A stretch of 64,000 nucleotides of DNA from a virus (IMGVR_UViG_3300046167_000798), one strand, 5' to 3'. Positions 624 through 20,813 are shown, numbered from the stretch's first letter. Program-made: numbers and translations. The notes: generated from the letters alone by a model not told the origin.

Positions 624-1271
624 TTAAATCTTGTGCTTTATATGGTTAAACATAACATCACCAATAATCTCACCCATTCTTGAATCAGATGGATAGTGTG
701 CTCTTCCTATATTTCTACTGTATGATATTCGTTTTCCTGCTTCTATGAAGGCATCTGTATTAATTGGTAATTTAGTTTGTAGTACCTTCCCTATCAAAAT
801 ACCTTGTGCGGAATGTCCTGATGGGTAAGATGGGGTTTTCATTGATTCCATTACCTTTGCACCTAATTTCATATTGTAATGAGATGACAATTGAAATGGT
901 CTTGGTCTGTTATGTATGTATTTTAAATCTAATATAATTCCTGCAGCTGATTTGAGTAATTTTTCTACTAATTCTTTTGGATATTCTACATTATTTTCTT
1001 TACAAAGTTGTTCAAATACTTTTTCAATATCATCATGTTCTTCAACATATTCATCATCTTCTGGTAAATCTTTTAGATATTGTAGTTCATTATAAACTAT
1101 CATGGAAGTATTTTTTGGAGGATTTTTTACTTTATATTTAGAATAATTGAAATCTTTAAACAAACCATCTTTGATTCCTTCAATTTTTTTAGCGTGTTTA
1201 TCTGGTATACCATCTGTTGTATAAACGGCATTCTTAATATCTCCTATATTTTCTTCTGTGAATATGAACAT
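624..1271 (-). CDS. PAP2 / haloperoxidase-superfamily acid phosphatase (soluble)
   Basis: All three PAP2 motifs: KYIHNRPRP, SYPSGH, SRNIGRAHYPSD. Confidence 0.85.
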   Translation of the reverse strand: MFIFTEENIGDIKNAVYTTDGIPDKHAKKIEGIKDGLFKDFNYSKYKVKNPPKNTSMIVYNELQYLKDLPEDDEYVEEHDDIEKVFEQLCKENNVEYPKELVEKLLKSAAGIILDLKYIHNRPRPFQLSSHYNMKLGAKVMESMKTPSYPSGHSAQGILIGKVLQTKLPINTDAFIEAGKRISYSRNIGRAHYPSDSRMGEIIGDVMFNHIKHKI

Positions 1272-1767: not shown

Positions 1768-1776
1768 TATAAATAT
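1768..1776 (-). promoter_or_regulatory. Class B motif ATANTTATA
   Basis: ATATTTATA 4 nt upstream of ATG 1763. Confidence 0.5.
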
Positions 1777-2114
1777 TAATATATTTGTATAAAGGTACTT
1801 TTTATAACACCATTGGAATTAATTAGTTCCAATTGTAACAAATCAGTAGGAAGTGATTTAGTATAAATCTTTCTTGTATTTAATTCAAGTGTAGGTAAAA
1901 ATGATTCTTTTGCAATAACAGAACCATCTTTTGATATCACTAATTGATGTTCTTCTTCTGATATTATTTCAAAAGAAAATTCTTGTCCATCTGTTACTGA
2001 TGATTCAGTTTCTTCAAATATCATTTCGTATTGCGGTAGTGGTTCTACAATCATCAACTCTTCTGGTTGACAAGATAGTATAACGAACAATATTAATACT
2101 ATATACTTTCTCAT
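1776..2114 (-). CDS. Lipoprotein with T9SS C-terminal-domain-like Ig fold
   Basis: Lipobox signal MRKYIVLILFVILSC; C-terminus NTRKIYTKSLPTDLLQLELINSNGVIKSTFIQIY resembles type A CTD pattern; paralog of 8295..8672. Confidence 0.55.
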   Translation of the reverse strand: MRKYIVLILFVILSCQPEELMIVEPLPQYEMIFEETESSVTDGQEFSFEIISEEEHQLVISKDGSVIAKESFLPTLELNTRKIYTKSLPTDLLQLELINSNGVIKSTFIQIY

Positions 2115-4202
2115 TTTATTTTATGGTCTATTCCACCCCCATTTTGTTTTACTAATTCTGATTTTGTAACTGATAGTAATCCTAATATAGATTCAAAAGT
2201 TTGTTGTGGTGAAAAGTAAATCTTATATTGTACACCACCATTTAAATTTTGAGAACCATCAGTAGATATAGAACCTAACTTTATGTAGTTTGTTCTTTCA
2301 GCTGAAAATGACTGTAAGTTAGAAGTAGTTTCTATTCTATCAAACTCCACTCTAGTGTTATCATATCCTATTCTAAATTCAGAACCTACAATGTTATGAT
2401 TGTTTTGTGGTACATCTAATGTTACCACAAATTTATCTTCTTCCTTACTGATATCTAATAACACCTCAAATTCATTTGATTTTTGAGAAGATGAATTTCT
2501 AATTGACATTGATTGAGTACCAGGTGAACTTGTTGATTGTGGTGCAGAATGTGAAAGATTTACATCACCTATAAATGAAACTTTATATTCTAAGGTTTGT
2601 ATCGTATCTATAATACTAAAGGTAAAATTTGTTGATGGTGATTTATTTGTTTGTGTTTTCCAATTAGAGGTTGTAGTATTATCGTATTCTGATTTAGGAA
2701 CTATTCTCATTATCTCTTGTAGGTAACCATTGAAAGGAGTATCACCACCATTTAAGAAAGCCAATCCTATTTGACTATCTTGAAAATTAAACTCACCATC
2801 TTGATTAACATCTGAGTTTTGTAATTGAACTCCACTCAAATCTCCTTTATATCCACCGAATATTCCACCACCTGCTAATTCATTAAATCCTGCAACCACA
2901 TCTGCAACTGTAATGTAATCATCCATAAATTCTTCAGCTGTCCACCCTTCTATATTATCAGATGGATTATTAACAACTATTTTATGTCCTTTATATATTT
3001 CAACATCTTCAAATGAGAACTCTGCTCTAATACCAAAATAACTACCAGCATTTCTAATCACACCACTTCCATATGAACTATTAGATATAGCAGTTGTTAG
3101 ATTACCTGGTATGTAATATTGTTGCCAACCATCCGAACCCTCACTTACACTATGAACAGTAATTGTTCCATCATACAAATCAAGTAATTGTAATGATTTT
3201 AAATCATTTGGGTCTGTATCAGGATTAGTAGCAGTGAATTCTCTACCATCAATCAGTATTCTATGTCTATCGTTTGTAGAATCATATGGATATAAAACTA
3301 CCCACTCTACACTTCCACTTTCTGTGGTTGCTTTCAAACCATCAGTCATCTTAACCAAATTTAGATAATCAGTTATATCTTTACTTCCATCATCATCTAA
3401 ATAATATTTTGAATTCATTGTAGAAGTATTGAAATATGTTGAACCATCTTGTTCATTTGATGCATCATAATATACACCAAATCTATATTGTTCTGGTGAT
3501 AATTGAGAATGGAATTCTAAATCTAAATCAACTTCAGGTTCTGTTGTAGTAGTTCCACCACCTGGGTCTACATTTGTCCAAGTTCCAAATTGATGATTGG
3601 AACTTATCCAATTGTAATTTGGTGAACTTGAATTTGCTGGTATTGAATAACCAAAATAGTAATAATCCCCTCCACCATATTCTTGGTATCTAAATTCAAA
3701 TTCATACCATTTAGTATTATCTAAATTTGCAGTACCATATCGATTAGAACAACAACCCCATTGAAATGTAATTGTTTGCCAAGTAGTAGTTCCTACTTCT
3801 CTATATCTAGTTTCTGATGAATCATCTGCATAAGTTTTGAAATTATAAGTTCCATTTTTATTTGGTTTGAACCAACCCTGAATAAACTATTGCAAAATAC
3901 GAATTACCCCATCTCGGTGGGTGTCCTCCATTTAAACCACCTGAACTCCATGGTGTTGCTTCACCAACATGAGTTAATGTTGTACCTGGTTGGTTTGTAT
4001 CAACCATTGCATCAAACTCAGCAGTTGAACCTGCTCCACCACTATATGATACACCATTATAAGATGATGCTGCACCATTACCAGAGTGAGTTTTGTAGGA
4101 TTTATAATTTATTTTTCCTTCACCACTTGGAGTATAACCAGCACCGGTCTGACCAAATACTAAAGTTGGTAACAGTAATAATATGAAGAGAAGTTTCTTC
4201 AT
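2111..4202 (-). CDS. Secreted PA14 + dockerin-like + cohesin-like protein (~696 aa after repairing one indel)
   Basis: Signal peptide MKKLLFILLLLPTLVFGQ; removing one base at 3876-3878 gives YSGWFKPNKNGTYNFKTYADDSSE (PA14-like) and a continuous frame into ORF 2111..3418; EF-hand-like SDVNQDGEFNFQDS; cohesin-like IVGSEFRIGYDNTRVEF. Confidence 0.7.
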
Positions 4203-4732
4203 TAAAAATTATCCTTTGGCTTATCTAATCTAAAATATATTGTTCCTCCTACATAAGGTCTTAGTTTTCCAAGATTATTTTCTCTATCTACTAAATCGTT
4301 TCTAAATCCAACATCTATACTAAACATTTTATCATTTTTGAATTTATGTAGAACTTGAACATTTGCTCCACTAAAGTAATTTTCCATATCCCATTGATAT
4401 GCAAATCCAGCATACCACTTTGATTCTGGTAATTCATACTTCGGTACGATTACTTCATATGGTTTATCTATATAAACCTTTTTGATTTTAGTTTTAATTT
4501 TTTCTACAATTACTTCTTTGATTATAGTATCTCTTTTTATTTCTGTAATATACTTTGGTACAAAAACTTTCTTCTCTACTAGTTTTTCAACATAGATACT
4601 ATCAATTACAGTCTGAAGAACTTCTATTTCTTTAATCTTCTCTACTTCTTGTATTGTTGGGTTTAAATACATCCATGCTGATAATCCTATTAATACTCCT
4701 ATTACTCCTAATTTCCAATCTATTTTTTTCAT
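4202..4732 (-). CDS. N-anchored membrane protein with V/E/K-rich spacer and C-terminal amphipathic beta-strands
   Basis: TM LGVIGVLIGLSAWMYL; EKLVEKKV/IIKEVIVEK spacer; alternating aromatic strands WYAGFAYQW, PYVGGTIYFRL. Confidence 0.7.
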   Translation of the reverse strand: MKKIDWKLGVIGVLIGLSAWMYLNPTIQEVEKIKEIEVLQTVIDSIYVEKLVEKKVFVPKYITEIKRDTIIKEVIVEKIKTKIKKVYIDKPYEVIVPKYELPESKWYAGFAYQWDMENYFSGANVQVLHKFKNDKMFSIDVGFRNDLVDRENNLGKLRPYVGGTIYFRLDKPKDNF

Positions 4733-4741
4733 ATTTTCTCC

Positions 4742-6547
4742 TTAAAATGGTAACTTAGCACCTATCATAAACGAATTCATTATTGGTACAAACTCATTAC
4801 TACTATAAATTATCGTCCACCCTGCATTGAACGAAAAACTTTTTGTTAATTGTATTGTGAAGGAATTTGCAAGAATCCCTATAAAATCTTTTGATGTTGA
4901 TGAAAAGGCATCGAATCCCTCAACTTTTTCTGTATAAGATAATGGGTTTTGTGCACCAATCAATGCTGGTGTGTACATTATTCTATCGTTTATTTTTACC
5001 ATATTTGTGTAAAGAACATTATATCCCATAGTACCCATTTTTGGCATTGTATTTCCAAGTGCATCTTTACCAAACATAAACGAATAACTAATACCCAATC
5101 CAACAGTTCCATACTTACCCATAGGTTTCATTCTACTCAAAGATAATGTAGTTGAGTTCATCTGATAATTTCTCATATAAGATAGATTTGCTGCATCTAC
5201 CCAAGTTACTTGATAATTTTCATTCAAACTTACTTTACTTCTACCCAATGATAATCCAACTTGTTTCATATTATCATATATTTGTAAGTTTGCTGTATTT
5301 GTTATATCACCATAGATTGATGCTTGTGATGCTCCTATTGCAAGTACTTGGTTGTATTCTCTTGTTAGAGCTTGCATTGACATTATATCTGCTTTCAATA
5401 CTATTGGCATAAATTTCTTTTTCTTTTCTTCTTCCTCTTCCTCATCTTCTTCCTCATCTTTTTCTTCTTCCTCTTCTTCCTCTTCCTCATCTTCTTCTTC
5501 CTCTTCCTCTTCCTCATCTTCTTCCTCTTCTTCTTCTTTTTCTTCCTCTTCCTCTTCTTCATCCTTTTCTTCTTCCTCTTCCTTTTCTTCTTCCTCAGAT
5601 TCTTCTTCTTTATCTTCTTCACTATCTTCATCCGATTCATCAGAATCATCATCAGAATCATCATCACCATCAGAATCATCATCAGAGTCATCATCTCCAT
5701 CTCCATCTGAATCATCATCGGAATCTCCATCAGAGTCATCATCACCATCACCATCTCCATCTCCATCACCATCGGAATCAGAATCACTATCTCCATCGGA
5801 ATCAGAATCCCCATCCCCATCTCCATCTCCATCTCCATCACCACCATCAGAACCATCTCCATCACCATCTCCATCTCCTCCTCCATCACCATCGGAATCA
5901 CCAGAGCCACCATCTCCATCACCATCACCTCCATCAGAACCATCGCCTCCACCATCAGAGCCATCGCCACCACCATCGGAATCACCTCCTCCATCAGAAC
6001 CATCTCCTCCAGAATCACCACTTCCTCCACCATCAGAATCAGAACCTCCACCATCTCCACCGGAATCTCCTCCACCATCAGAGCCACTTCCTCCACTGTC
6101 TCCACCAGAGTCTCCACTTCCACCACCATCAGAACCTCCACCGCCAGAATCTCCACTACCACCTGATGAACCACTACCACTTGAATCAGAACCACTACCA
6201 CTTGAACCACTTGAACCTGAGTTAGTGTTATTGGTATTATTGGTTGCGTTGTTTGCGGTGTTATTAGCGTTATTGGTTGCGTTACTTGCAGATGAACAAG
6301 GTGAAAGTGCAGCCCACCATGCATATTTCTGAACTAACCATTGTTGGAGTTCACCATTAGTATATTGTGCGTATGTGAATAATTTAGCTTCGTTATAGAA
6401 TGCAACGATAGCTGAACCACTTGTGAAATCAGCGGTTACCACTTGTACTTCACCAGTACATCTGTCTACAAATGTCTGTGTGAAGGTTTGCCCATAACTA
6501 AGATTAGTGATGAACCAAAACGCAAGTATCGATAGTAGTTTTTTCAT
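4742..6547 (-). CDS. Secreted/outer-membrane protein: small Cys-pair head, ~290-aa N/S/G/D/E low-complexity stalk, C-terminal beta-barrel-like domain
   Basis: Signal peptide; low-complexity middle; ~220-aa C-terminal region of alternating hydrophobic strands ending in Phe (AKLPF). Confidence 0.75.
   Translation of the reverse strand: MKKLLSILAFWFITNLSYGQTFTQTFVDRCTGEVQVVTADFTSGSAIVAFYNEAKLFTYAQYTNGELQQWLVQKYAWWAALSPCSSASNATNNANNTANNATNNTNNTNSGSSGSSGSGSDSSGSGSSGGSGDSGGGGSDGGGSGDSGGDSGGSGSDGGGDSGGDGGGSDSDGGGSGDSGGDGSDGGGDSDGGGDGSDGGGDGSDGGDGDGDGGSGDSDGDGGGDGDGDGDGSDGGDGDGDGDGDGDSDSDGDSDSDSDGDGDGDGDGDDDSDGDSDDDSDGDGDDDSDDDSDGDDDSDDDSDESDEDSEEDKEEESEEEEKEEEEEKDEEEEEEEKEEEEEEDEEEEEEEEDEEEEEEEEEKDEEEDEEEEEEKKKKFMPIVLKADIMSMQALTREYNQVLAIGASQASIYGDITNTANLQIYDNMKQVGLSLGRSKVSLNENYQVTWVDAANLSYMRNYQMNSTTLSLSRMKPMGKYGTVGLGISYSFMFGKDALGNTMPKMGTMGYNVLYTNMVKINDRIMYTPALIGAQNPLSYTEKVEGFDAFSSTSKDFIGILANSFTIQLTKSFSFNAGWTIIYSSNEFVPIMNSFMIGAKLPF
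5410..6300 (-). repeat. Coding low-complexity repeat tract (NNAT, SG, GD, SD, poly-E, poly-K)
   Basis: Degenerate TCA/TCC/TCT/CCA trinucleotide runs on + strand; synonymous codons vary. Confidence 0.95.
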
Positions 6548-6550
6548 TCA

Positions 6551-7270
6551 TTAGTTTGGAAATATTTTTTTTCTAATCATTCTTGCTACTATTCTTGCTG
6601 AAGCCGTTTCTAATGCTTTTCTGGTAGTTACTCCAATTGCTGATTGTCTGAAGTTTATTTCCTCCAAATCTAATCCCAGCAAACCTTCTTGAGTTTTTAC
6701 CGTATTTGCCTCACCGAGGCCAGAACCTACAAAGTAAGTACCATTCTCTGCATTAGTGAAACGAACTTGTAAACCCAAACGAGTTGTTTGAGTTTGTTTT
6801 GAACCATCTTTTAAAGATAGAACTTCATCTTCTGAAACTGAGAAATCATAAATCTCTATTGTAACGAAATATTCCGCCAACATTATTTTACCCATTCCAT
6901 AAACTTCATTTTGAGAAACACCTTTTCTTGATGCAACCCATTGTGATTTCATTCTATTTTTAATCTCTGATTTTTCTTCTACGAACTCAAATCGGTTTGT
7001 CCAATCTAAGTACTCTATTACCATATTGGTAACACCTAATCCTATTCTTGCATCTTTTAAATCTGGCCACATTTCGTAAACCACATCAGATGCAGAGATA
7101 TTGATTAAAGCAATTGGAATCGTTTCACCCCAATAATCAGATACATCATCAATAGATTTCTTTTTTTCGAATTCTGCTTGATATGTTTCTGCTTTTATCT
7201 TACCAACAGTTTGTGCAATAGTATTTTGTGTGAATAATACACATAAAATTAAAATAAATATATTTTTCAT
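6551..7270 (-). CDS. CsgG/HfaB-like secreted protein
   Basis: Signal peptide; GLGVTNMVIEYLDWTNRFEFVEEK, FVTIEIYDF, RLGLQVRFTNAENG pattern of CsgG fold. Confidence 0.65.
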   Translation of the reverse strand: MKNIFILILCVLFTQNTIAQTVGKIKAETYQAEFEKKKSIDDVSDYWGETIPIALINISASDVVYEMWPDLKDARIGLGVTNMVIEYLDWTNRFEFVEEKSEIKNRMKSQWVASRKGVSQNEVYGMGKIMLAEYFVTIEIYDFSVSEDEVLSLKDGSKQTQTTRLGLQVRFTNAENGTYFVGSGLGEANTVKTQEGLLGLDLEEINFRQSAIGVTTRKALETASARIVARMIRKKIFPN

Positions 7271-7371
7271 TTTTTATCCTTCATATGATTGGTTAAGTTT
7301 GGGTACATATCTAAAAATGCCTTTGTTAACCAATCATCGATTTTGATTATTATTTCTATAAGTTTTTTCAT
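7267..7371 (-). CDS. 34-aa hypothetical peptide
   Basis: Manual: MKKLIEIIIKIDDWLTKAFLDMYPNLTNHMKDKK*; ATGA overlap with the next gene. Confidence 0.55.
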   Translation of the reverse strand: MKKLIEIIIKIDDWLTKAFLDMYPNLTNHMKDKK

Positions 7372-7373
7372 AT

Positions 7374-7571
7374 TTAACTTCCTAGTGTATCAAATATGCC
7401 GAAAGTTGCGTTATCAACTGCTGATGGGTTCATAATGATATGGGTTATAATAGTACCCAAACCAAGAACAAACATCACCAATAATACTGCCAACCATACC
7501 TTTACAATAACGTCTACTACTTTGTAGTCTGACATTCTATCTCTAAAGATTTCTGTAAGTGTTGTAATCAT
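7374..7571 (-). CDS. Small single-TM protein
   Basis: Hydrophobic VIVKVWLAVLLVMFVLGLGTIITHIIM. Confidence 0.65.
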   Translation of the reverse strand: MITTLTEIFRDRMSDYKVVDVIVKVWLAVLLVMFVLGLGTIITHIIMNPSAVDNATFGIFDTLGS

Positions 7572-7607
7572 TGTTTTTTTTAATTCTCCAATTTTTAATG
7601 TTATACG

Positions 7608-7847
7608 TTAGTGGGTATCCTTAATATGTTTAGGTAATCTCCATCCATGTACTCTCATTTGCCAAGCATACCACCCAGCAAATCCAAAGAACTGTACTAT
7701 CCATCCACCTGCCAATAAATCTGCAGTTAAATCTCCAGCTTGGATTCTATCACCTAATAATAAAAAGTAAGCATTTAAATAAACTATACCGATTATAAAT
7801 CCGATACCTTGTCCATTTAGTTTCCACCATTTTTTGAAACTACTCAT
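7608..7847 (-). CDS. Small two-TM membrane protein
   Basis: Two hydrophobic segments, basic termini. Confidence 0.65.
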   Translation of the reverse strand: MSSFKKWWKLNGQGIGFIIGIVYLNAYFLLLGDRIQAGDLTADLLAGGWIVQFFGFAGWYAWQMRVHGWRLPKHIKDTH

Positions 7848-7865
7848 TTTTCTCCTTTGTTTAAT

Positions 7866-8162
7866 TTACCAATCAATTTCTTCTTCTTTTTCTTTTTTCT
7901 TTTCAACAGGAACTTCTTTTATTATAGTTTTTGTTTCTGTCTTTTGTTCTGGTATGTTTACTACGATTGTAGGCCCTTCTACATTTACTGATTGATTGTT
8001 TTCTTGTACAACCTCAGTTTGTGGTTCTGAATCATCTTCTATTCCTACAAATGATTTAACCTCATCTATAAAAACACCACCCAATGTAGTTAGTATTATA
8101 CCAACTCCAGCTATTATTTGATTCTTTATCTGTGAAAAGAATCCTTCTTTTTTTTCACTCAT
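7866..8162 (-). CDS. Single-TM protein with charged C-terminal tail
   Basis: TM IIAGVGIILTTLGGVFI; TIIKEVPVEK tail. Confidence 0.7.
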   Translation of the reverse strand: MSEKKEGFFSQIKNQIIAGVGIILTTLGGVFIDEVKSFVGIEDDSEPQTEVVQENNQSVNVEGPTIVVNIPEQKTETKTIIKEVPVEKKKEKEEEIDW

Positions 8163-8293
8163 AATTTTGCTCTCCTTTTTTGTCTACATTCTTTACAATC
8201 ACATGGTTTGTGTTTACATACTGTTATATCTGTTGTAAGGATACACCATGTACAAAACACACCAAACCCAATTAAACATGCAGTGCTTAACAT
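8159..8293 (-). CDS. 44-aa Cys-rich membrane peptide
   Basis: Manual: MLSTACLIGFGVFCTWCILTTDITVCKHKPCDCKECRQKRRAKL*; ATGA overlap. Confidence 0.55.
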   Translation of the reverse strand: MLSTACLIGFGVFCTWCILTTDITVCKHKPCDCKECRQKRRAKL

Positions 8294-8294
8294 T

Positions 8295-8672
8295 TTAATT
8301 TACTACAAAAGACTGGTTTCCTAATATATTATGAAACTCATCTGTTAATTGAATTAGATAACCACTTTTCTCTAAAGATGCAACATATACTTTAAGAAGG
8401 TTATCACCCTCACCAGCTGTTATCATCTCTTGAGAGATTAGTTCATTGTTCATACCATGTCTAATCTTTATTCTGTATTTACCATCTAATGGTAATTTTA
8501 CATTCATTGCAACTCTATCAGTTACGATAGTGTTTTCTAATTTAATACCAATCAATTCTTTAATCTGTAAAGATTGTGGTACTTCTTGGTCTGGATAAAG
8601 TGTTACTAAATCATCATCTTGGTAACAACCCATCATTAAAACCAAACTAAGTAATGTTAATATTTTTTTCAT
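8295..8672 (-). CDS. Lipoprotein with T9SS C-terminal-domain-like Ig fold
   Basis: Lipobox MKKILTLLSLVLMMGC; GDNLLKVYVASLEKSGYLIQL...SFVVN resembles Por secretion tail. Confidence 0.6.
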   Translation of the reverse strand: MKKILTLLSLVLMMGCYQDDDLVTLYPDQEVPQSLQIKELIGIKLENTIVTDRVAMNVKLPLDGKYRIKIRHGMNNELISQEMITAGEGDNLLKVYVASLEKSGYLIQLTDEFHNILGNQSFVVN

Positions 8673-8689
8673 TTTTTGTTTCCTTTTTA

Positions 8690-10336
8690 TTATTGTATTA
8701 TAAAATTAATTTGTGTTCCATCTGCTTTCACACCTTCTTTTACTCTAAACGAAATTAAACCCGATGTATTTTCGATTGTTTCTAATGGTGTAAATACTAA
8801 TTTGTATGGTGTTCCTTGTTTAACAGTTGCACTAACGTTTTGGTCAAATGAACCAACTCTTACTAATCCATCTTGAACTATATTAGAGAAGTTTGTCATG
8901 TCATTACCAGTATCGAATATTACATTCTCTAATGAAAGTACGTTAGGGTCATATACTATATTGAACTGAGAACCAACCATTCCTTCAATATCTGAATTGA
9001 TAGAAAAGATTACTTGTCCATCTTTTATTTCAGATATTAAATCTATATTTGCTGTTTCTGTTGAACTAAATTTACTACCAGCTGCCATACTCATTCTAGC
9101 TTGTGATGATTGTGATGATGTTGCCTTTTCACCACTATTAACTGTTGGCTCCCATGAGTGAGAGAAGTTTACATCACCAACTAAACCATGTGCTAAATCA
9201 ATTGTTTTTGTTGAAACATCTGAATCAAGTGGTGTGAATGATTTAGCGAATGTTACTGTATTGTTAGTAACTGCACCATAAGTAGATTCAATACCACTAT
9301 AATCTTCTGTTTTTCCATCTTGTGTGATTCGGTTTGTATTACCACTTGTTACACCTTGTAGGTAAGCAAGTATCTCATATGAATCTTGGAAATCAACAAC
9401 ACCACCATCACCAACAACATCACCCATTATATCTTGAATGAAATAATCAAATGTAGTTGAACCACCACTTGGACCAGAACTTGCTCCAATTGCTTCAGCG
9501 AATACTAATGCTAAATCAGCTACGGTTACAACCTCATCTAAATAAGTTGCATCTTCGGCTAAGTTTGCTTCAGCAGTATAAGTTACGTTGTTTTCTAAAC
9601 CACTTACAGATGCTTGTCCACTTTCATCAAAAGTACCAGTTGCAACTGATTCACCTGCACCATTCTTAATAGTATAAGAGTAATCTGTTTTAGCTGAATT
9701 TGCTGTTTTAAGGTTAATAGTAAATGTACCAGCATTACCACCCTCGATACCACTTAGTGATTGTGTAGATGGTGATTTAATAGTTTGAATTTTTGTTCCA
9801 TCTGCTTTTTGGTAGTTTGCCCAATTCACTTTAATGATATTGTTGTAGTTATCATACCCACTACCAAACTTATCCTTTACTTTGAAGCTATACTTTACAA
9901 ATTCTCCACCATCTTCGTATGCAGCTGAGGTTTGGATTGTAGTTCTCTCTACACTCCAATCAGCAGAAGTAGAATAGGAAGCATTTCCTGCTTCATCTTT
10001 CCACCAAGTGTATTGTACATCCATATCATCTTCTGATGTATTTGCTTTTGGATTAAACTTATATCCAGTCCAATTGTTTCTGGCATAAGATGCACCTGTT
10101 GGTGCTTGTGAGGTACTTGAGATGTAAGATAACAATTTGTTGTTATATTCGAAATCAAACTGAGCCAATGTCAAATCTCCTCCATCTTGTTTGTTGTATT
10201 GGAACTTCATAATTAAAGTATCCCCTACTTTTGTTACTGTATTTACTGGACTATAATTTATCTCAGCGGGGTCATTCTGACCAGATACAGATAGTGTAAA
10301 AAATACACTAATTAATAATAATAAAATTTTTTTCAT
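8690..10336 (-). CDS. Secreted cohesin-like / Ig / dockerin-like / cohesin-like protein
   Basis: Signal peptide; KVGDTL..QFDFEYNNKLLSY (cohesin-like); VVTVADL..GDVVGDGGVVDFQDSYEIL (dockerin/EF-hand-like); GSQFNIVYDPNVLSL (cohesin-like). Confidence 0.7.
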   Translation of the reverse strand: MKKILLLLISVFFTLSVSGQNDPAEINYSPVNTVTKVGDTLIMKFQYNKQDGGDLTLAQFDFEYNNKLLSYISSTSQAPTGASYARNNWTGYKFNPKANTSEDDMDVQYTWWKDEAGNASYSTSADWSVERTTIQTSAAYEDGGEFVKYSFKVKDKFGSGYDNYNNIIKVNWANYQKADGTKIQTIKSPSTQSLSGIEGGNAGTFTINLKTANSAKTDYSYTIKNGAGESVATGTFDESGQASVSGLENNVTYTAEANLAEDATYLDEVVTVADLALVFAEAIGASSGPSGGSTTFDYFIQDIMGDVVGDGGVVDFQDSYEILAYLQGVTSGNTNRITQDGKTEDYSGIESTYGAVTNNTVTFAKSFTPLDSDVSTKTIDLAHGLVGDVNFSHSWEPTVNSGEKATSSQSSQARMSMAAGSKFSSTETANIDLISEIKDGQVIFSINSDIEGMVGSQFNIVYDPNVLSLENVIFDTGNDMTNFSNIVQDGLVRVGSFDQNVSATVKQGTPYKLVFTPLETIENTSGLISFRVKEGVKADGTQINFIIQ

Positions 10337-10844
10337 AATAAGTCCTTAATAATTTGCCTCACATACCTTTTTTAAAGCTATACTAGCAGTTTGTTGATTA
10401 AATGTTCCGTCTTGTGCAACTACAAGAGTACTAGTAGAAATCGTTTTACTCGTTCCTTTTTGAGTAGTACGTTTTTTAACCTTTTCCCTTGACTTCTAAT
10501 TCACCAATTGCTATAATCTGCGTTAGTGAAACATCTTTGTGAAACACCGCAACTGATGTTCCAATATTTTTTATATCAAAAAAGACCAATCTTACATTTA
10601 TTTGCGTAGATGCTTGGTCTGATAAATCATAATCTAAATCCATTAATAATTCTTCGAGGATATTCTTTACACCAACTGCAAGGTTTCGGTTACCTGCAAA
10701 CTTACCCATACGGATTTCGTTGGTTACTGAACCGACCTTTATGAGGTTGTTATCACTTGTGTGAATCTCGTTTGAACCAGTCGGTAATAAAACAAAGATA
10801 CACAAAATGAATATTTTAAATACATTTAATGTAGCGTACTTCAA
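10333..10844 (-). CDS. Second CsgG-fold-like exported protein (~169 aa after repairing two indels; TTG start)
   Basis: GGAG upstream of TTG; removing one base at 10480-10485 and one at 10357-10358 restores an ATGA overlap with 10336; LAVGVKNILEELL and FNQQTASIALKK match segments of 6551..7270. Confidence 0.55.
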
Positions 10845-10985: not shown

Positions 10986-10994
10986 TATAAGTAT
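10986..10994 (-). promoter_or_regulatory. Class B motif ATANTTATA
   Basis: ATACTTATA in the 170-nt gap upstream of the secreted operon. Confidence 0.45.
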
Positions 10995-11013: not shown

Positions 11014-11907
11014 TTATTGAATTTTTTTTAATTCTGGTAGAAAATTATCGTGGGATATTTTTTTAAATTCCTCTCTTCTATCGTAAACTGAGAGAGAATT
11101 TAGGTAATGATAATGTCCTCTATATTTGTAGTTTTCACAAACTACTAGGTTTTTTATTTTGAATTGATGAATTTCTTCATTTTGTTCTCTAACGAGTTTT
11201 TCACTACCCACCATTAAAAAGGTATCTTCATAACCATAGTGAGCAAATGAATCTGGTATTCCAATTCTATTTAGAAGTTTTCCACTTATACAAGTGAACC
11301 ATCCTCCTGCAAATTTAAATCTTGATTGAGGGGAGTTTGAATTATTTACAGGTACAATACTAATATCTCCTTTGATACCACTATCTTTATAAGGGTCATT
11401 TGTTTTTTGATATTCAAGTGGTTTATCTAAGAATTGTTCATTTACAATACAATCCCAAGTATTATCCCAAACTCTAACGATTTCAGGTGTGATTACTGAT
11501 AATGGATAATCTTTATTTATACCTTGAATAGAAGATACAATATAAGATAGGGTTCTTTCTTCAAATATAATATCAGTATCTAACCAAATAAAGTAATCAG
11601 CATCATTATGCTTATTGAGTGAAAATCTTCTCTGAGATACACATCCTAATATTTCTTCAGATACTTGAAATGTTTTTACACACCAATCAGTATGATATGA
11701 TAACTTTAAAAATTTATCTACAAAGTATTTTTTATTTATAGATGATTTATTCCAATCAACCATTTCACCTGAAGTACATAATGTTACATCAAGATTCCAA
11801 TCAATTCCTTTTGGAGAATAATATTGTGCCCTACGAAGTTGATTTAGAGTATTTTCTAATTCATCAATCTCGTAAGGCAAACAAAATATGGATATTACTA
11901 TTTTCAA
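11014..11907 (-). CDS. GT-A fold glycosyltransferase (GT2-like)
   Basis: FIWLDTDIIF DxD motif; YGYED; glycan cluster context. Confidence 0.7.
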   Translation of the reverse strand: MKIVISIFCLPYEIDELENTLNQLRRAQYYSPKGIDWNLDVTLCTSGEMVDWNKSSINKKYFVDKFLKLSYHTDWCVKTFQVSEEILGCVSQRRFSLNKHNDADYFIWLDTDIIFEERTLSYIVSSIQGINKDYPLSVITPEIVRVWDNTWDCIVNEQFLDKPLEYQKTNDPYKDSGIKGDISIVPVNNSNSPQSRFKFAGGWFTCISGKLLNRIGIPDSFAHYGYEDTFLMVGSEKLVREQNEEIHQFKIKNLVVCENYKYRGHYHYLNSLSVYDRREEFKKISHDNFLPELKKIQ

Positions 11908-11908
11908 T

Positions 11909-12889
11909 TTATGATAAATCTACTTGTGATAATACTGAATCCCAATTATCAAACTTGATTCCTTTATCATCAATATATGCAACTGCTCTCGGTTTTTGTG
12001 AAGTTACTTTAGAAACGTATTGATTTAAATCATGTTCTTTTAACCATTCCCAAATTAATTGAGTACCACTTTGTCCATTTACTAAACCTCTATCTTTTCT
12101 CGCTTTTGCAGAATATACAATTACAACATATTTCTCAGATAGTTTTTGTAATGCTTCTCTTGCACCTTCTACTGGTTCATCATAAACAGTTCCATCGTGG
12201 TATCCTTTTGAGTTCTTGTGAATAACACCATCGAAATCTACACCGATGTTTACTAATTCATCAGGATAAGAATGTTCTCTTGTTGCAGATGCACCACCTT
12301 GTCTATTTAGTAATTCTAAATCTTCTGGTTTGTTTTGGAAAATAGGAGGACAAACTTTACCACTACCATGTGTAAGTTGATAAGTAAGTAATAATGTAAG
12401 TACTTCTGATGTGTGATAATACTCAGCACCTAATACAACTTCTGATAAGTTGTTAATCTTTTCTGGTATTGGAGCTGATGTAATCATTGCTATTTGCATT
12501 CCTCTTGATTCACCATCTTCTAATGCTCTCATGATATCAATTGATTTACCACTTGATGAGATACCAAGAATTAATGTTTTCTTTAATTGTTCTGGTGTTT
12601 GAGATACTGTTCTCTGTCTTACCCAATGAACCATCCAATCATCAAACGAAGAATCGTTGATTAGAGAGGTTGCTACAATGGCACTACCAGGTGCCTGTGC
12701 ATTCTTTGTTCCATTTGATAACCTTGAGATATCAGTTGCTGCATGGTCTGCAACTCCTAAGTTTCCACCATGTCCTAATACAAATATATCAACACAATCG
12801 TTGAATTTTTCTTGTATATCATTCCACTCTTTTGTATTGATGACTTCTAAGAATTTATCACCAATGTTTTCGAAATTTAATCCTGCCAT
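11909..12889 (-). CDS. SIS sugar-phosphate isomerase fused to HAD phosphatase
   Basis: IFVLGHGGNLGVADH and GISSSGKS (GmhA/SIS-like); VDFDGVIH and YIDDKG (HAD). Confidence 0.8.
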   Translation of the reverse strand: MAGLNFENIGDKFLEVINTKEWNDIQEKFNDCVDIFVLGHGGNLGVADHAATDISRLSNGTKNAQAPGSAIVATSLINDSSFDDWMVHWVRQRTVSQTPEQLKKTLILGISSSGKSIDIMRALEDGESRGMQIAMITSAPIPEKINNLSEVVLGAEYYHTSEVLTLLLTYQLTHGSGKVCPPIFQNKPEDLELLNRQGGASATREHSYPDELVNIGVDFDGVIHKNSKGYHDGTVYDEPVEGAREALQKLSEKYVVIVYSAKARKDRGLVNGQSGTQLIWEWLKEHDLNQYVSKVTSQKPRAVAYIDDKGIKFDNWDSVLSQVDLS

Positions 12890-12891
12890 AA

Positions 12892-13554
12892 TTATTTATT
12901 TTGTTTTAATTTATATATTATTTCTGCTGTTTGGAATTCAAAAGGAGTGTTGATATCTACTCCCTCGTATTCATTAAGTATAATAAAATTTGGTTTATCA
13001 CCAATAACTCGTGATTTATTTTTCATTATATTCTTATCTACAATTGTTATACCATAATTTATCATTTCAATATCAGGTAAATCCTGTGAATTTGGTACAT
13101 TATTTAAATCATAGTTAATAGGTTTACCATCTAACCACAAATGTCCTTTTACCAAAGAAGTTGAAGTTAAACTATCACATTCTGAATTCATGAATTGGTC
13201 TATAGCCTCTTCATGTTTTTCAGAACTAATGAAAGGAGAACATACAGGTGCCAGAAATATATAATCAGTATCAGTTGTTTTACCAATATGACCATGAAAC
13301 TCAGAATTAGAAGCTTCACTACTTGCAAAGTACTCTTCTCTTTTCTTTGTTTTTACACCATATGATTTTCCTATTTCAATCATTTTATCACAATCACTAT
13401 TGACTATGATTTCATCTATATTACTAACCTTTAATAAAGTTTGTAATTTTAAATCCAATAAGGTTGTATCACCAAATGGTTTAATATTTTTATTAGGTAC
13501 TCTCTGAGAACCTTTACGAACCGCAACTACTGCTGTAACTTTTCCTTGTTTCAT
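12892..13554 (-). CDS. neuA: CMP-sialic/ulosonic acid synthetase (acylneuraminate cytidylyltransferase family)
   Basis: RKGSQRVPNKNIKPF, IIVNSD, DINTPFEF. Confidence 0.85.
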   Translation of the reverse strand: MKQGKVTAVVAVRKGSQRVPNKNIKPFGDTTLLDLKLQTLLKVSNIDEIIVNSDCDKMIEIGKSYGVKTKKREEYFASSEASNSEFHGHIGKTTDTDYIFLAPVCSPFISSEKHEEAIDQFMNSECDSLTSTSLVKGHLWLDGKPINYDLNNVPNSQDLPDIEMINYGITIVDKNIMKNKSRVIGDKPNFIILNEYEGVDINTPFEFQTAEIIYKLKQNK

Positions 13555-14661: not shown

Positions 14662-14679
14662 ATTAAGGTATTTGTTATA

Positions 14680-14711
14680 CAAATATACGAAATTTATTTG
14701 AATTATACAAA
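14680..14711 (-). promoter_or_regulatory. Class A Bacteroidota-type promoter (-33 TTTG, N20, -7 TATATTTG)
   Basis: Matches TTTG-N19-21-TAnnTTTG consensus. Confidence 0.8.
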
Positions 14712-20797: not shown

Positions 20798-20813
20798 TAT
20801 GTGTATGATTTTA

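What the first reader, a model, noticed from the sequence alone, without database searches (positions are those of the whole stretch)
1776..10844. Phage operon that looks like a surface-scaffold system: cohesin/dockerin-like proteins, CsgG-fold proteins, a beta-barrel stalk protein and lipoproteins
Seen: about 13 consecutive co-directional genes, nearly all with Sec signal peptides, lipoboxes or TM helices, bounded by class B motifs at 10986 and 1768. They include two CsgG-fold proteins, two cohesin+dockerin-like proteins (one with PA14), two CTD-like lipoproteins and an OM barrel-like protein. Known: cohesin-dockerin pairs assemble cellulosome-type complexes; CsgG forms an OM secretion pore; csgG/csgF genes have been reported in some marine myophages. 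I do not know of a phage system combining these with cohesin/dockerin. Inference: the phage builds its own extracellular complex on the infected cell (receptor masking/superinfection exclusion, adhesion/aggregation, glycan capture or grazer defence). This is the best candidate for an undescribed system in the window.
Basis: partly seen in the sequence, partly recalled or inferred. Interest (0 to 1): 0.85.

Follow-up and report, generated by a model that had tools for sequence, protein, structure and literature searches.

The report
Phage module remodelling host cell surface
A large marine phage of Flavobacteria-like bacteria carries a conserved 9-kb block of about twelve exported and membrane proteins that most likely installs an outer-membrane complex and sugar-binding "plug-and-socket" proteins on the infected cell; I found no description of the block in the papers I could search, and a cultured phage-host pair exists to test it.

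Summary
Window 1776-10844 (- strand) holds 12-13 co-directional genes, and nearly all carry export or membrane signals.

- **Sequence errors:** three 1-nt homopolymer insertions, absent from independent seawater assemblies, break two genes. The ORFs at 3858-4202 and 2111-3418 are one gene (697 aa in a 97%-identical relative). The first gene is really 169 aa.
- **CsgG-like proteins:** the 239-aa protein has a CsgG-type fold (Z 12.1), and its profile reaches Pfam-CsgG proteins. The 169-aa protein is a shorter paralogue (hhalign 95.6%).
- **Barrel protein:** the 601-aa protein has a small Cys-bracketed head, a ~270-aa acidic disordered tract and a 12-strand barrel (FapF, NanC and autotransporter class).
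- **Cohesin/dockerin proteins:** two large paralogues carry cohesin, dockerin-like and PA14 modules. Each is followed by a small lipoprotein with the Bacteroidota surface-export signal.
- **Conservation:** five families recur in 55-60 of 60 phage loci, including cultured Flavobacterium phage immuto. In other clades the cohesin protein ends in a real T9SS sorting domain, never followed by the lipoprotein.

The host-insertion reading is refuted. The function (surface display and envelope remodelling) is inferred, and a CsgG-type pore is not shown. This scan had already noted the same module in at least 17 other genomes. I found no paper on it.

The parts
10986..10994 (-). ATACTTATA motif about 140 nt upstream of g01; probable promoter element that opens the block
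   Evidence: All 12 matches in the window are on the - strand, against 7.0 expected on both strands. The exact motif lies 85-158 nt upstream of the g01 orthologue in six close relatives. Promoter function is inferred.
10333..10844 (-). g01: signal peptide plus a short CsgG/LptE-like domain. The intact form is 169 aa; here two 1-nt insertions (near 10482 and 10357) break it.
   Evidence: both insertions are absent from X2 and X5. hhalign of the family against Pfam-CsgG-positive proteins gives probability 95.6%, E 1.2e-8, and against the g09 family 93.8%. Present in 59 of 60 loci.
8690..10336 (-). g02: 548-aa secreted protein with the layout cohesin-like, Ig-like, dockerin-like, cohesin. It has no T9SS sorting domain.
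   Evidence: Pfam Cohesin scores 23.2 bits (cut-off 24.1) in two stretches. Orthologues score 27.6 to 49.2 bits. The dockerin-like segment profile hits solved dockerins. It is colinear with the CTD-bearing 640-aa protein of L019.
8295..8672 (-). g03: small lipoprotein (lipobox MMGC, then YQDDD) with a beta-rich domain, possibly like a T9SS CTD
   Evidence: Of 23 family members, 22 have at least two acidic residues within a few positions of the lipid Cys, which fits the C-x-K-(D/E)2 export signal of PMC5080379. hhalign against module CTDs gives E 1e-3, probability 21-25%. It always follows a COH protein that lacks a CTD.
8159..8293 (-). g04: 44-aa single-TM protein with a basic, Cys-rich tail
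   Evidence: Read from the sequence. Detected in only 2 relatives.
7866..8162 (-). g05: 98-aa N-in single-TM protein with a K/E/P-rich periplasmic tail ending in ...EEIDW
   Evidence: The family is present in 55 of 60 loci. All 46 distinct members end in acidic-x-Trp.
7608..7847 (-). g06: 79-aa protein with two TM segments and a basic C-terminus
   Evidence: Sequence. Matches in 12 loci.
7374..7571 (-). g07: 65-aa single-TM protein
   Evidence: Sequence. Matches in 13 loci.
7267..7371 (-). g08: 34-aa ORF, doubtful gene
   Evidence: Only 4 loci have a match, and it has no TM segment.
6551..7270 (-). g09: 239-aa CsgG-superfamily protein. It has a signal peptide then Gln here and is a lipoprotein in other clades. 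It is the most conserved gene of the module.
   Evidence: AF2 model pLDDT 70. Foldseek top hit is CsgG, E 5.6e-7. VIA Z is 12.1 for CsgG, against 10.3-8.6 for Cj1090c, PelC, CT253, XCC0632, the LPHT ring and LptE. The family profile finds proteins that pass Pfam CsgG PF03783. Present in 60 of 60 loci. 2625 protein clusters with E <= 1e-3.
4742..6547 (-). g10: 601-aa protein with a signal peptide, a small head domain bracketed by two invariant Cys, a ~270-aa acidic disordered tract and a C-terminal 12-strand beta-barrel ending in Phe
   Evidence: In the AF2 model, the barrel at 382-600 has block pLDDT mostly 75-88 and residues 107-378 are mostly below 50. Foldseek hits are FapF 4e-7, NanC, KdgM and NalP. 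AFDB hits are autotransporter barrels, DUF481 and YaiO. The gene lies directly downstream of g09 in all 60 loci listed.
4202..4732 (-). g11: 176-aa protein with an N-terminal TM or signal segment, a K/E/V/I-rich repeat region and a beta-rich C-terminus ending in Phe
   Evidence: Sequence. Present in the close clade only, 11-12 loci. No Pfam or PHROG family.
2111..4202 (-). g12/13: one gene (697 aa in the 97%-identical relative L002) with the layout signal peptide, PA14-like, dockerin-like, cohesin-like. A 1-nt insertion near 3876-3879 splits it here.
   Evidence: PA14 scores 43.7 and 65.8 bits in orthologues L006 and L012. Dockerin_1 scores 14.2 bits here, and the loop DVNQDGEFNFQD is canonical. 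The C-terminal ~290 aa are homologous to g02.
1776..2114 (-). g14: small lipoprotein (ILSC, then QPEE), a paralogue of g03
   Evidence: Alignments A6 and A12. Export-signal tally.
1768..1776 (-). ATATTTATA motif at the end of the block, upstream of the next small gene
   Evidence: The motif lies at or within 20 nt of the module end in L002, L004, L007, L013 and L014.

Best explanation
The block is a phage-encoded envelope module of a large myophage-like virus that infects marine Bacteroidota (Flavobacteriia-like hosts). It is probably transcribed as one unit. All its products leave the cytoplasm through the host Sec and lipoprotein pathways.

**(1) Outer-membrane complex, the conserved core.**
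- It comprises two CsgG-superfamily proteins (g09 and its shorter paralogue g01), which sit at the periplasmic face of the outer membrane.
- It also has a 12-strand barrel protein (g10), whose small disulfide-bracketed head is joined to the barrel by a long acidic disordered tract.
- The inner-membrane protein g05 reaches across the periplasm and ends in an invariant acidic-x-Trp.
- By analogy with PelC-PelB, LptE-LptD and CsgG-CsgF, I expect the CsgG-like proteins to ring or plug the barrel.

**(2) Surface-displayed proteins, the variable part.**
- g02 and g12/13 combine glycan-binding-type modules (PA14 here, C-type lectin in other clades) with dockerin-like and cohesin modules.
- In other clades the cohesin protein is a T9SS cargo.
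- In this clade the sorting domain is missing, and each large protein is followed by a small lipoprotein carrying the Bacteroidota surface-export signal. I take that lipoprotein to be the anchor.

**Most likely role (inferred).** The module coats the infected cell with glycan-binding proteins that mask or cross-link surface glycans. That would give receptor masking and superinfection exclusion, and would protect progeny from adsorbing to debris. Adhesion or aggregation is the close second.

**Shown:** the folds, the homologies, the export signals and the co-conservation.
**Inferred:** the localisation, the contacts between the parts, and the role.
For: **Phage context**
- The window encodes GroEL, RNR and DnaB-type helicase.
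- The nearest cultured relative is Flavobacterium phage immuto, whose gp013-gp019 form the same module.

**Co-conservation in 60 loci**
- g09 family: 60.
- g10 family: 60.
- g01 family: 59.
- COH family: 58, about two per locus.
- g05 family: 55.

**Folds and homologies:**

**Host and localisation signals**
- The four signal-peptidase-I substrates expose Gln, the Bacteroidetes Q-rule (PMC5837995; sequences).
- 22 of 23 small lipoproteins carry acidic residues right after the lipid Cys, fitting C-x-K-(D/E)2 (PMC5080379).
- The orthologous 640-aa proteins score Cohesin 48-49 bits and Por_Secre_tail 41 bits.
- Immuto gp015 has Cohesin plus Por_Secre_tail.
- The partner protein in the distant clade has Lectin_C at 63.5 bits plus a dockerin-like segment at 19.3 bits.

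**CTD and trailing lipoprotein are mutually exclusive**
- 39 COH proteins have a CTD and none is followed by a small lipoprotein.
- 24 lack a CTD and are followed by one.

**Other support**
- The dockerin-like profile hits solved dockerins.
- Near-identical DNA stands in seawater and viral metagenomes of many studies (14 studies across all holders, DNA and RNA). Error-free contigs of 6969-8771 stand in a metatranscriptome library, which is only weak evidence of transcription.
Against: - No experiment bears on any part.
- g09 gets no direct Pfam CsgG hit and no PDB sequence hit.
- In an alignment with E. coli CsgG, the two hairpins that form the CsgG barrel are about 5 and 7-9 residues shorter. 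The Y-N-F constriction is replaced by a different conserved loop. A pore is therefore not supported.
- Dockerin hits are below Pfam's cut-off in every member.
- The CTD-like fold of g03 and g14 is weak.
- g02 and g12/13 have no recognised route across the outer membrane.
- The CTD-versus-lipoprotein exclusivity is confounded by phylogeny, since the lipoprotein form is confined to one clade.
- In 10 of 60 loci an endolysin-like gene adjoins the module, which fits a lysis role as well.
Confidence: 0.55

Rival explanations
1. Self-contained export apparatus. The CsgG-like proteins and the 12-strand barrel, tethered to the inner membrane by g05, form a phage-encoded outer-membrane channel. It exports the dockerin-bearing lectin or PA14 proteins that lack a T9SS tag. 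These then dock on cohesins anchored by T9SS (other clades) or by surface lipoproteins (this clade).
For: - The lectin-dockerin proteins of the distant clade, and g02 and g12/13 here, have signal peptides but no CTD.
- The best structural matches of g09 and g10 are both polypeptide export channels, CsgG and FapF or autotransporter barrels.
- g09 and g10 are adjacent in all 60 loci.
- g05 has an invariant C-terminal Trp, as expected of a docking motif.
- The mature N-terminus of g10 resembles that of CsgF.
Against: - The hairpins of g09 are shorter than CsgG's and the constriction residues are not kept.
- 12-strand barrels of this size are too narrow for folded domains, and NanC and KdgM porins match as well as FapF.
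- The resemblance to CsgF is a 9-residue motif, and the model places it inside a folded beta domain.
Confidence: 0.2
2. Lysis or egress device. The module is a trans-envelope complex (inner-membrane g05, g06, g07 and g11 plus outer-membrane g09, g01 and g10) that times or executes disruption of the outer membrane. It would act like a spanin, or like the role proposed for CsgGF in phage Melnitz.
For: - The small TM proteins have basic tails, as holins do.
- An endolysin-like gene (phrog_33083, E 1e-12) adjoins the module in 10 of 60 loci.
- A lysis-linked role was proposed for phage CsgGF (PMC9004378).
- The motif that opens the block also precedes other gene starts in the window.
Against: - No lysis gene lies next to the block in this window.
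- The hypothesis does not explain the large, fast-evolving cohesin, dockerin, PA14 and lectin proteins, their T9SS tags, or the surface lipoproteins.
- None of the proteins matches a PHROG lysis family.
Confidence: 0.12
3. Nutrient or glycan capture. The lectin and PA14 proteins plus a porin-like barrel act as a Sus-like uptake aid. They would feed the infected cell, as an auxiliary metabolic function.
For: - NanC and KdgM sugar-acid porins are among the best matches of the barrel.
- Glycan-binding modules are present.
- Some relatives encode a secreted nuclease within the module.
Against: - There is no SusC, SusD or TonB-dependent transporter, and no glycoside hydrolase in the block.
- The hypothesis does not explain the acidic stalk and head on the barrel protein, or the CsgG-like pair.
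Confidence: 0.08
4. Artefact or non-envelope reading. The block is a chimeric host insertion in the assembly, or its proteins are virion (fibre or decoration) proteins.
For: - GC content is slightly higher at 4-8 kb.
- Ig-like, PA14 and lectin domains also occur in phage fibres.
Against: - The flanking genes are conserved together with the block in close relatives.
- A cultured phage genome carries the module.
- Independent assemblies bridge both edges (records 17, 20 and 30).
- In 185,579 species genomes, only 5 MAG contigs have the g09 family, and two of them are 248-254 kb phage-sized contigs.
- The GC rise is due to the Gly/Asp/Glu tract of g10.
- Signal peptides, lipoboxes and T9SS tags do not fit cytoplasmic virion assembly.
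Confidence: 0.03

Closest known systems
CsgG/CsgF 'curli-like' cluster of pelagimyophages (HTVC008M group) and Methylophilales phage Melnitz (PMC7029224, PMC9004378)
   Same: It is a phage-encoded CsgG-family protein set in a small cluster of exported proteins within a variable region. There are no recognisable amyloid subunits, and the function is unknown.
   Different: - tblastn with g09 finds only immuto phages, so no detectable sequence similarity to those phage genes.
- The host phylum differs.
- Here there is no CsgF gene. Instead there are two CsgG-like paralogues, a 12-strand barrel protein, cohesin, dockerin and lectin proteins, and T9SS or lipoprotein anchoring.
Curli (type VIII) secretion channel CsgG of E. 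coli (PDB 4UV3, 6L7A)
   Same: It is the best structural match of g09 (Z 12.1, 168 residues, rmsd 4.0). Homology is reachable through intermediate sequences that pass PF03783.
   Different: - Identity is 14%.
- The hairpins are shorter, and the constriction loop is not conserved.
- There is no lipid anchor in this window's copy.
- There is no csgA, B, E or F.
Ring- or plug-lipoprotein plus barrel pairs: PelC-PelB (PDB 9H80) and LptE-LptD
   Same: Proteins of the same fold superfamily (PelC Z 9.9, LptE Z 8.7) work with an outer-membrane barrel encoded beside them. This is the arrangement I propose for g09, g01 and g10.
   Different: Those barrels have 16 or 26 strands and export polysaccharide or LPS. 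Here the barrel has 12 strands and carries a head and an acidic tract. No contact is shown.
FapF amyloid exporter and type Va autotransporter translocators (PDB 5O65, 1UYN)
   Same: Each has a 12-strand barrel at the C-terminus, preceded by a helix and an N-terminal extension.
   Different: - There is no Pfam Autotransporter or Fap family hit.
- The 'passenger' is about 65 folded residues plus a ~270-aa acidic disordered tract.
- NanC and KdgM porins match equally well.
Cellulosome-type cohesin-dockerin assemblies and non-cellulosomal cohesin/dockerin proteins
   Same: Cohesin domains are above the Pfam cut-off in orthologues. The dockerin-like segment has a canonical Ca-loop, and the anchoring protein carries a cell-surface sorting signal.
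   Different: - It is encoded by a phage.
- The first dockerin repeat is degenerate.
- Cohesin and dockerin-like modules sit in the same polypeptide.
- The cargo is lectin or PA14, not an enzyme.
- Anchoring is by T9SS or lipoprotein.
- Binding is untested.
Phage-encoded T9SS cargo in 'Cryophage' (Bellas et al. 2020, PMC7468147)
   Same: A Bacteroidota phage encodes variable proteins with T9SS type A sorting domains, including a PA14 protein. They are presumed to be secreted by the host system.
   Different: Those are single flexible genes. The paper makes no mention of cohesin, lectin or CsgG. In this window's clade the sorting domain is absent.
Surface-exclusion lipoproteins (plasmid TraT, PDB 9FSM; phage T5 Llp)
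   Same: These are outer-membrane proteins made by a mobile element to block entry of competitors. TraT shares the fold class with g09 (Z 7.2).
   Different: The structural match is weak, those are single proteins, and there is no evidence of exclusion here. The T5 Llp comparison rests on my own knowledge.

Membership tests
CsgG/HfaB superfamily (PF03783), for g09 | CsgG-type alpha/beta fold | tested here: met
   VIA Z 12.1 to 6L7A, 168 aligned residues, rmsd 4.0. CsgG entries fill ranks 1-8. Foldseek E 5.6e-7. Model pLDDT is 70.
CsgG/HfaB superfamily (PF03783), for g09 | Sequence homology to the family | tested here: met
   There is no direct Pfam hit. The g09 profile finds P0179, P0189, P0245, P0224 and P0265 at E 1e-13 to 1e-24. 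These score 24.8-43.9 bits on PF03783, whose cut-off is 20.8.
CsgG curli pore (type VIII secretion) | Two amphipathic hairpins per subunit that build the 36-strand barrel | tested here: inconclusive
   In alignment A13 the two regions are about 5 and 7-9 residues shorter than in E. coli CsgG and are rich in charged residues. Identity is 14%, so the alignment is uncertain.
CsgG curli pore (type VIII secretion) | Constriction loop (Tyr, Asn, Phe) and N-terminal lipid anchor | tested here: not met
   The aligned loop reads Y-E-M-W-P-D-L-K-D and is conserved as such in the family. This window's copy has a signal-peptidase-I site (…IAQ) and no lipobox, while other clades have LIGC.
CsgG curli pore (type VIII secretion) | Partner genes csgF, csgE, csgA and csgB | tested here: not met
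   No Pfam or PHROG hit to any of them in the block. The only trace is a short motif at the mature N-terminus of g10 that resembles CsgF.
CsgG/LptE-like domain, for g01 | Homology to the CsgG superfamily | tested here: met
   hhalign of the family (A8) against Pfam-CsgG-positive proteins (A9) gives probability 95.6%, E 1.2e-8 over 120 columns. Against the g09 family it gives 93.8%. No structure was predicted.
Cohesin (PF00963), for g02 and g12/13 | Score above Pfam's gathering cut-off | tested here: inconclusive
   Window g02 scores 23.2 bits against a cut-off of 24.1. Orthologues score 27.6 (L015), 36.7 (immuto gp015), and 49.2 and 48.4 (L019, L061). g12/13 qualifies only through homology to g02.
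Dockerin type I (PF00404) | Two tandem Ca-binding loop-helix segments | tested here: inconclusive
   Scores are 14.2, 19.3 and 22.5 bits against a cut-off of 22.9. The second segment is canonical (DVNQDGEFNFQD in g12/13) and the first loop is degenerate. About 15 of the top 20 PDB hits of the profile are dockerins, with E from 0.001.
Cohesin-dockerin complex | The two modules bind each other | not tested
PA14 (PF07691), for g12/13 | Score above Pfam's cut-off | tested here: inconclusive
   The 97%-identical intact orthologue gives only GLEYA at 16.8 bits. Orthologues L006 and L012 give PA14 at 43.7 and 65.8 bits at the homologous place.
T9SS cargo (type A CTD, PF18962) | C-terminal sorting domain on the secreted protein | tested here: not met
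   There is none on g02 or g12/13. It is present on 39 orthologous COH proteins of other clades, at 41 bits.
T9SS CTD-like fold, for g03 and g14 | Homology to the sorting domain | tested here: inconclusive
   hhalign E 7.5e-4 and 1e-3, probability 25% and 21%, colinear over 58-66 columns. One member gives a Pfam Por_Secre_tail hit at E 0.008.
Bacteroidota surface-exposed lipoproteins | Lipobox Cys followed by the export signal C-x-K-(D/E)2-x | tested here: met
   Of 23 family members, 22 have at least two acidic residues within a few positions of the Cys, and most read C-x-K-D-D/E. In the window they read CYQDDD and CQPEEL. The signal is as defined in PMC5080379. Actual exposure is not testable here.
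12-strand outer-membrane barrels (autotransporter, FapF, KdgM/NanC class), for g10 | 12 antiparallel strands and a C-terminal aromatic residue | tested here: met
   The model has 12 long strands across 382-600, with block pLDDT mostly 75-88, and the protein ends in Phe. Foldseek E is 4e-7 to 1e-6 for FapF, NanC, KdgM and NalP.
Type Va autotransporter | Pfam Autotransporter barrel and a helix threaded through the pore | tested here: inconclusive
   There is no Pfam hit. A predicted helix at 360-374 precedes the barrel, but it is a poly-Glu/Lys stretch of low confidence.
Spanin/holin lysis module | Match to known lysis families, or adjacency to an endolysin | tested here: not met
   No PHROG lysis hit for any module protein, and no endolysin beside the block in the window. 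An endolysin-like neighbour occurs in 10 of 60 related loci.

The most novel reading that the evidence does not exclude
The module is a self-contained, phage-encoded secretion-and-display apparatus of a kind not described before. In this reading a CsgG-like ring (g09, g01) and a stalked 12-strand barrel (g10), tethered to the inner membrane by a protein with an invariant C-terminal Trp (g05), export dockerin-tagged lectins. These lectins then plug into cohesins held on the cell surface. In this clade the T9SS sorting domain has been split off and turned into a lipid-anchored holder.
Probability: 0.2. Interest if true: 0.88.

Novelty: new variant of a known kind. Interest (0 to 1): 0.68.

Why it matters
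**Why the module deserves study**
- Phages of marine Flavobacteriia help turn over algal-bloom carbon.
- The module is widespread. Its most conserved gene has 2,625 protein clusters with E <= 1e-3. Synteny holds in 60 phage loci. This very sequence stands in seawater and viral metagenomes of many independent studies.
- None of its proteins matched a PHROG family, apart from weak low-complexity hits for g10.
- I found no paper describing it.

**What it would show if the reading is right**
- Phages would be using the Bacteroidota-specific surface routes (T9SS, lipoprotein flipping) and cohesin-dockerin plugs to redecorate the infected cell with swappable glycan binders.
- That bears on superinfection exclusion, particle attachment and aggregation of infected cells.
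- The pairing of a CsgG-like protein with a 12-strand barrel could be a new outer-membrane assembly.

**Testability:** Flavobacterium phage immuto and its host LMO8 carry the module, so the questions can be tested directly.

Tried and rejected
- **Complex prediction.** I tested g09 (residues 21-239) against the g10 head (21-110) and barrel (375-601). The result was no verdict, score 0.00 with low fold confidence. It is neither for nor against binding.
- **Direct family searches.** Pfam and PHROGs on the window's ten main proteins gave only sub-threshold or low-complexity hits. PDB sequence-profile searches with the g09 and g01 families found no CsgG.
- **First g01 comparison.** The first hhalign of a shallow g01 alignment against g09 gave only probability 5%. 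It became significant only with a deeper alignment.
- **Phage and genome searches.** Megablast of the block against the phage collection found nothing. No whole genome is held for the window.
- **Pairwise BLAST.** BLASTP of g02 and g12/13 against the distant-clade proteins was not significant. The shared architecture rests on domain order and clustering.
- **Promoters and terminators.** The sigma-70-type promoter scan found fewer sites than in shuffles, and terminators were at chance level. Neither is informative for a Bacteroidota phage.
- **Pfam on neighbours.** Pfam did not recognise the endolysin-like neighbour, families F5, F6 and F9, or g11.
- **RNA libraries.** Parts of the block without RNA contigs in the two RNA runs say nothing about expression.
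- **Host-insertion and virion readings.** I rejected both (see the rival explanations).

Full report
**What is in the window.** All sizeable ORFs of the 64-kb window lie on the - strand. The window encodes GroEL, ribonucleotide reductase, a DnaB-type helicase and several glycosyltransferases. No cellular genome is held for it. From 10844 down to 1776 there is an uninterrupted run of ORFs. I call them g01 (10476-10844), g02 (8690-10336), g03 (8295-8672), g04 to g08 (five small ORFs, 8293-7267), g09 (6551-7270), g10 (4742-6547), g11 (4202-4732), g12 (3858-4202), g13 (2111-3418) and g14 (1776-2114).

**Export signals, read from the sequence.**
- g02, g09, g10 and g12 have signal peptides whose predicted cleavage exposes Gln.
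- g01 has a signal peptide.
- g03 and g14 have lipoboxes.
- g04, g05, g06, g07 and g11 have TM segments.
- g08 (34 aa) has none and is matched in only four relatives, so I doubt it is a gene.

**Three sequence errors change the gene list.**
- The 440-nt 'gap' between g12 and g13 is open in g13's frame.
- In four relatives, g12 and g13 are one continuous frame of 683-697 aa. The window differs by one extra G, reading CAGGGTTGG where the relatives read CAGGTTGG.
- g01 stops early because of two further 1-nt homopolymer insertions. Relatives encode 169 aa, and the stop overlaps the g02 start.
- Contigs of two independent seawater and viral metagenomes that are about 99% identical to the window lack all three extra bases. 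An RNA-library contig lacks the one it covers (table 4).
- These are therefore errors or rare variants of this record, not biology. The block has 12 real genes, or 13 with g08.

**The block is phage DNA and is co-conserved.**
- tblastn of g09 against 50,697 phage records finds only Flavobacterium phage immuto, at 52% identity.
- In immuto the homologue (gp017) sits among a C-type-lectin protein, a 'cohesin domain-containing protein' and hypothetical proteins.
- g09 has 2,625 protein clusters with E <= 1e-3, and the 120 listed are 81-98% identical to it.
- A scan of viral contigs gave 66 loci.
- In the close clade (77-94% identity for g09) nearly every gene of the block and the flanking genes are found in order.

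**Core families.** I clustered the neighbours in 60 loci and found five families that are almost always present.
- g09: 60 loci.
- g10: 60 loci, always directly downstream of g09.
- g01: 59 loci.
- The large cohesin-type family that holds g02 and g12/13 (COH below): 58 loci, about two per locus.
- g05: 55 loci.

Among 185,579 species genomes only five MAG contigs carry the g09 family. Two of them are 248-254 kb contigs binned with Bacteroidetes and Flavobacteriaceae. Independent assemblies bridge both edges of the block. The 'chimeric host insertion' reading is refuted.

**The CsgG-like pair.**
- g09 has no direct Pfam hit and no PDB sequence hit.
- Its AF2 model (pLDDT 70) matches CsgG best: Foldseek E 5.6e-7 and VIA Z 12.1 over 168 residues, with CsgG entries filling ranks 1-8.
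- Other members of the fold class score lower: Cj1090c 10.3, PelC 9.9, LptE 8.7 and TraT 7.2.
- A profile of the family, run against 1.8 billion representatives, retrieves proteins that pass Pfam's CsgG threshold. Homology to the superfamily is therefore established.
- A diverse alignment of the g01 family matches those Pfam-positive proteins at probability 95.6% (E 1.2e-8) and the g09 family at 93.8%. g01 is a compact paralogue.

Membership of the curli pore family is a different matter.
- Aligned with E. coli CsgG, the two hairpins that build the CsgG barrel are about 5 and 7-9 residues shorter.
- The constriction residues are replaced by another conserved loop.
- This copy is not lipidated.
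- No csgA, B, E or F is present.

I therefore file g09 and g01 as CsgG-superfamily proteins without claiming a pore. The recurrent pairing of this fold with a barrel (PelC-PelB, LptE-LptD, CsgG-CsgF) is the analogy I use.

**The barrel protein.** The AF2 model of g10 shows four regions.
- A small beta/alpha head (21-~105), bracketed by two invariant Cys.
- A disordered acidic tract from about 107 to 378.
- A short helix.
- Twelve long strands across 382-600, with block pLDDT mostly 75-88. The protein ends in Phe.

Foldseek places the barrel with FapF, NanC, KdgM and the NalP translocator at indistinguishable E-values. AFDB adds autotransporter barrels, DUF481 and YaiO, and the Atlas features agree. 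The tract varies from protein to protein, giving totals of 402-737 aa, and also within natural populations. The mature N-terminus is the most conserved stretch and resembles the N-terminus of CsgF. I treat that only as a lead.

**The cohesin, dockerin and lectin proteins and their anchors.**
- g02 scores just under Pfam's cohesin cut-off, while orthologues pass it.
- A conserved 65-residue segment in g02 and g12/13 has a degenerate first repeat and a canonical second Ca-loop-helix repeat. As a profile it preferentially finds solved dockerins, at E 0.001-0.03. It never reaches Pfam's cut-off.
- The N-terminal part of g12/13 is PA14-like, and orthologues pass at 43.7 and 65.8 bits.
- In the distant clade the upstream COH protein is cohesin, Ig, dockerin-like, cohesin and then a genuine T9SS sorting domain (Cohesin 49 bits, Por_Secre_tail 41 bits). 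The downstream one is a C-type lectin with a dockerin-like segment.
- Immuto gp015 is cohesin plus sorting domain.
- g02 is colinear with the tagged protein but stops before the tag.

In this clade every untagged COH protein is followed by a small lipoprotein.
- Across 106 COH proteins, 39 have the tag and none of those is followed by the lipoprotein. 24 lack the tag and are followed by one. This exclusivity is confounded by phylogeny.
- The lipoproteins g03 and g14 are paralogues.
- 22 of 23 family members carry acidic residues right after the lipid Cys. This matches the Bacteroidota surface-export signal C-x-K-(D/E)2 (PMC5080379).
- Their beta domain aligns colinearly with the sorting domain, but only weakly (E 1e-3, probability 21-25%).

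**Host.** Four kinds of evidence point to Bacteroidota.
- The Gln-after-signal-peptide rule (PMC5837995).
- The lipoprotein export signal.
- The T9SS tags in orthologous modules.
- The cultured relative and the MAG bins.

**Other conserved details.**
- g05 is an N-in single-TM protein with a charged periplasmic tail. All 46 distinct family members end in acidic-x-Trp, as expected of a docking motif that links the inner membrane to the outer-membrane parts.
- The motif ATAYTTATA occurs 12 times in the window, always on the coding strand. It brackets the block here and in close relatives, with none inside the block here and in most close relatives. This fits one transcription unit, but promoter function and timing are not shown.
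- Error-free contigs covering 6969-8771 stand in a random-primed marine metatranscriptome library. That is weak evidence of transcription, because DNA carry-over is not excluded.

**How it most likely works.** My best reading, at confidence 0.55, is an envelope module with two parts.
- The conserved core is g09, g01, g10 and g05, forming an outer-membrane complex tethered to the inner membrane.
- The variable part is g02 with g03 and g12/13 with g14. These are glycan-binding, cohesin/dockerin-type proteins held at the cell surface by export-signal lipoproteins, where other clades use T9SS.
- I think the most likely consequence is masking or cross-linking of surface glycans, giving superinfection exclusion and protection of progeny. 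Adhesion or aggregation is next.
- The variable proteins diverge much faster than the core (g02 27-90% identity against 77-94% for g09). This fits interaction with variable targets.

The rivals are given with their evidence in the Rival explanations section.
- A self-contained export channel for the untagged lectins: 0.20.
- A lysis or egress device: 0.12. An endolysin-like gene adjoins the module in 10 of 60 loci.
- Glycan capture: 0.08.
- Artefact or virion proteins: 0.03.

**Comparison with what is known.**
- Phage csgG/csgF clusters are described for pelagimyophages and for Melnitz. They share no detectable sequence similarity with g09, and they lack the barrel, the cohesin/dockerin proteins and the Bacteroidota routes.
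- Phage-encoded T9SS cargo, including a PA14 protein, was reported for 'Cryophage', but without this module.
- Papers on Baltic Flavobacterium phages that I could search do not mention the module. Searches for phage cohesin/dockerin or phage T9SS display also found nothing.
- None of the proteins matched a PHROG family, apart from weak low-complexity hits for g10.
- This scan has noted the same module in at least 17 other genomes, and follow-up agents reached similar readings. I reached mine before reading them and re-tested their main points here.

**Verdict.** The module is real, phage-borne, widespread and undescribed in the searchable literature. It is built from known families in a new combination. 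I rate it a new variant of a known kind, with interest 0.68.

Noticed in passing
window about 3876-3879, 10357 and 10482: The record has three single-base homopolymer insertions that break g12/13 and g01. Relatives and independent Illumina-based assemblies lack them. This suggests the record has homopolymer errors, so other apparent frameshifts in this genome should be treated with caution.
   Followed up: yes
window, 12 sites including 593, 1277, 1768, 10986, 26422, 36782, 58313, 59770, 61920, 63253: ATAYTTATA occurs only on the coding (-) strand and mostly just upstream of gene starts. It is strand-biased in related loci as well (101 against 36). It is probably a phage promoter element, but its class and timing are unknown.
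   Followed up: partly
window 7866-8162 (g05) and 46 distinct homologues: Every member of this small inner-membrane protein family ends in acidic-x-Trp (EEIDW, EDAPW or EEESW). This is a strikingly invariant C-terminal motif with no known partner.
   Followed up: partly
window 5400-6300 (g10 acidic tract): The Ser/Gly/Asp/Glu tract differs in length between homologues (proteins of 402-737 aa) and within natural populations. One seawater contig replaces 253 nt at 5707-5961. Opposite-frame ORFs of 307 and 326 aa over the tract are artefacts of its composition.
   Followed up: partly
window 6400-6490 (mature N-terminus of g10): The conserved motif Q-x-[FY]-x-[YQ]-[ST]-[FY]-x-[DE]-[PR]-C-[ST]-G, right after the signal peptide, resembles the N-terminus of E. 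coli CsgF (…TFQFRNPNFGG), the part that sits inside CsgG. The motif is short, and the model places it in a folded domain.
   Followed up: partly
L033:9677-10261 and 18 other loci; L015:12992-13600 and 9 other loci: In the distant clade the module also contains a secreted DNA/RNA non-specific endonuclease (Pfam, 69.7 bits). In ten loci an endolysin-like gene (phrog_33083) lies beside it.
   Followed up: partly
L030:16036-18231: One related phage adds a 731-aa protein with PKD and SprB repeats and a type B (CHU_C) T9SS signal next to the module. It is a gliding-adhesin-like cargo encoded by a phage.
   Followed up: no
window 11014-26021: Directly upstream of the block lies a long run of sugar-modifying genes. 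They include glycosyltransferases and a SIS isomerase-HAD fusion matching a phage phosphoheptose-isomerase family. A functional link between phage-made glycans and the lectin-type proteins is conceivable but untested.
   Followed up: no
window 624-1271: A PAP2-superfamily phosphatase (33.9 bits) lies downstream of the block, behind its own ATATTTATA motif. It is conserved with the block in close relatives.
   Followed up: no
window 6969-8771: Contigs identical to the window stand in a random-primed marine metatranscriptome. Smaller pieces stand in oligo-dT libraries. The phage sequence itself is held at about 90% of words by seawater and viral metagenomes of many studies from 2017 to 2025.
   Followed up: partly
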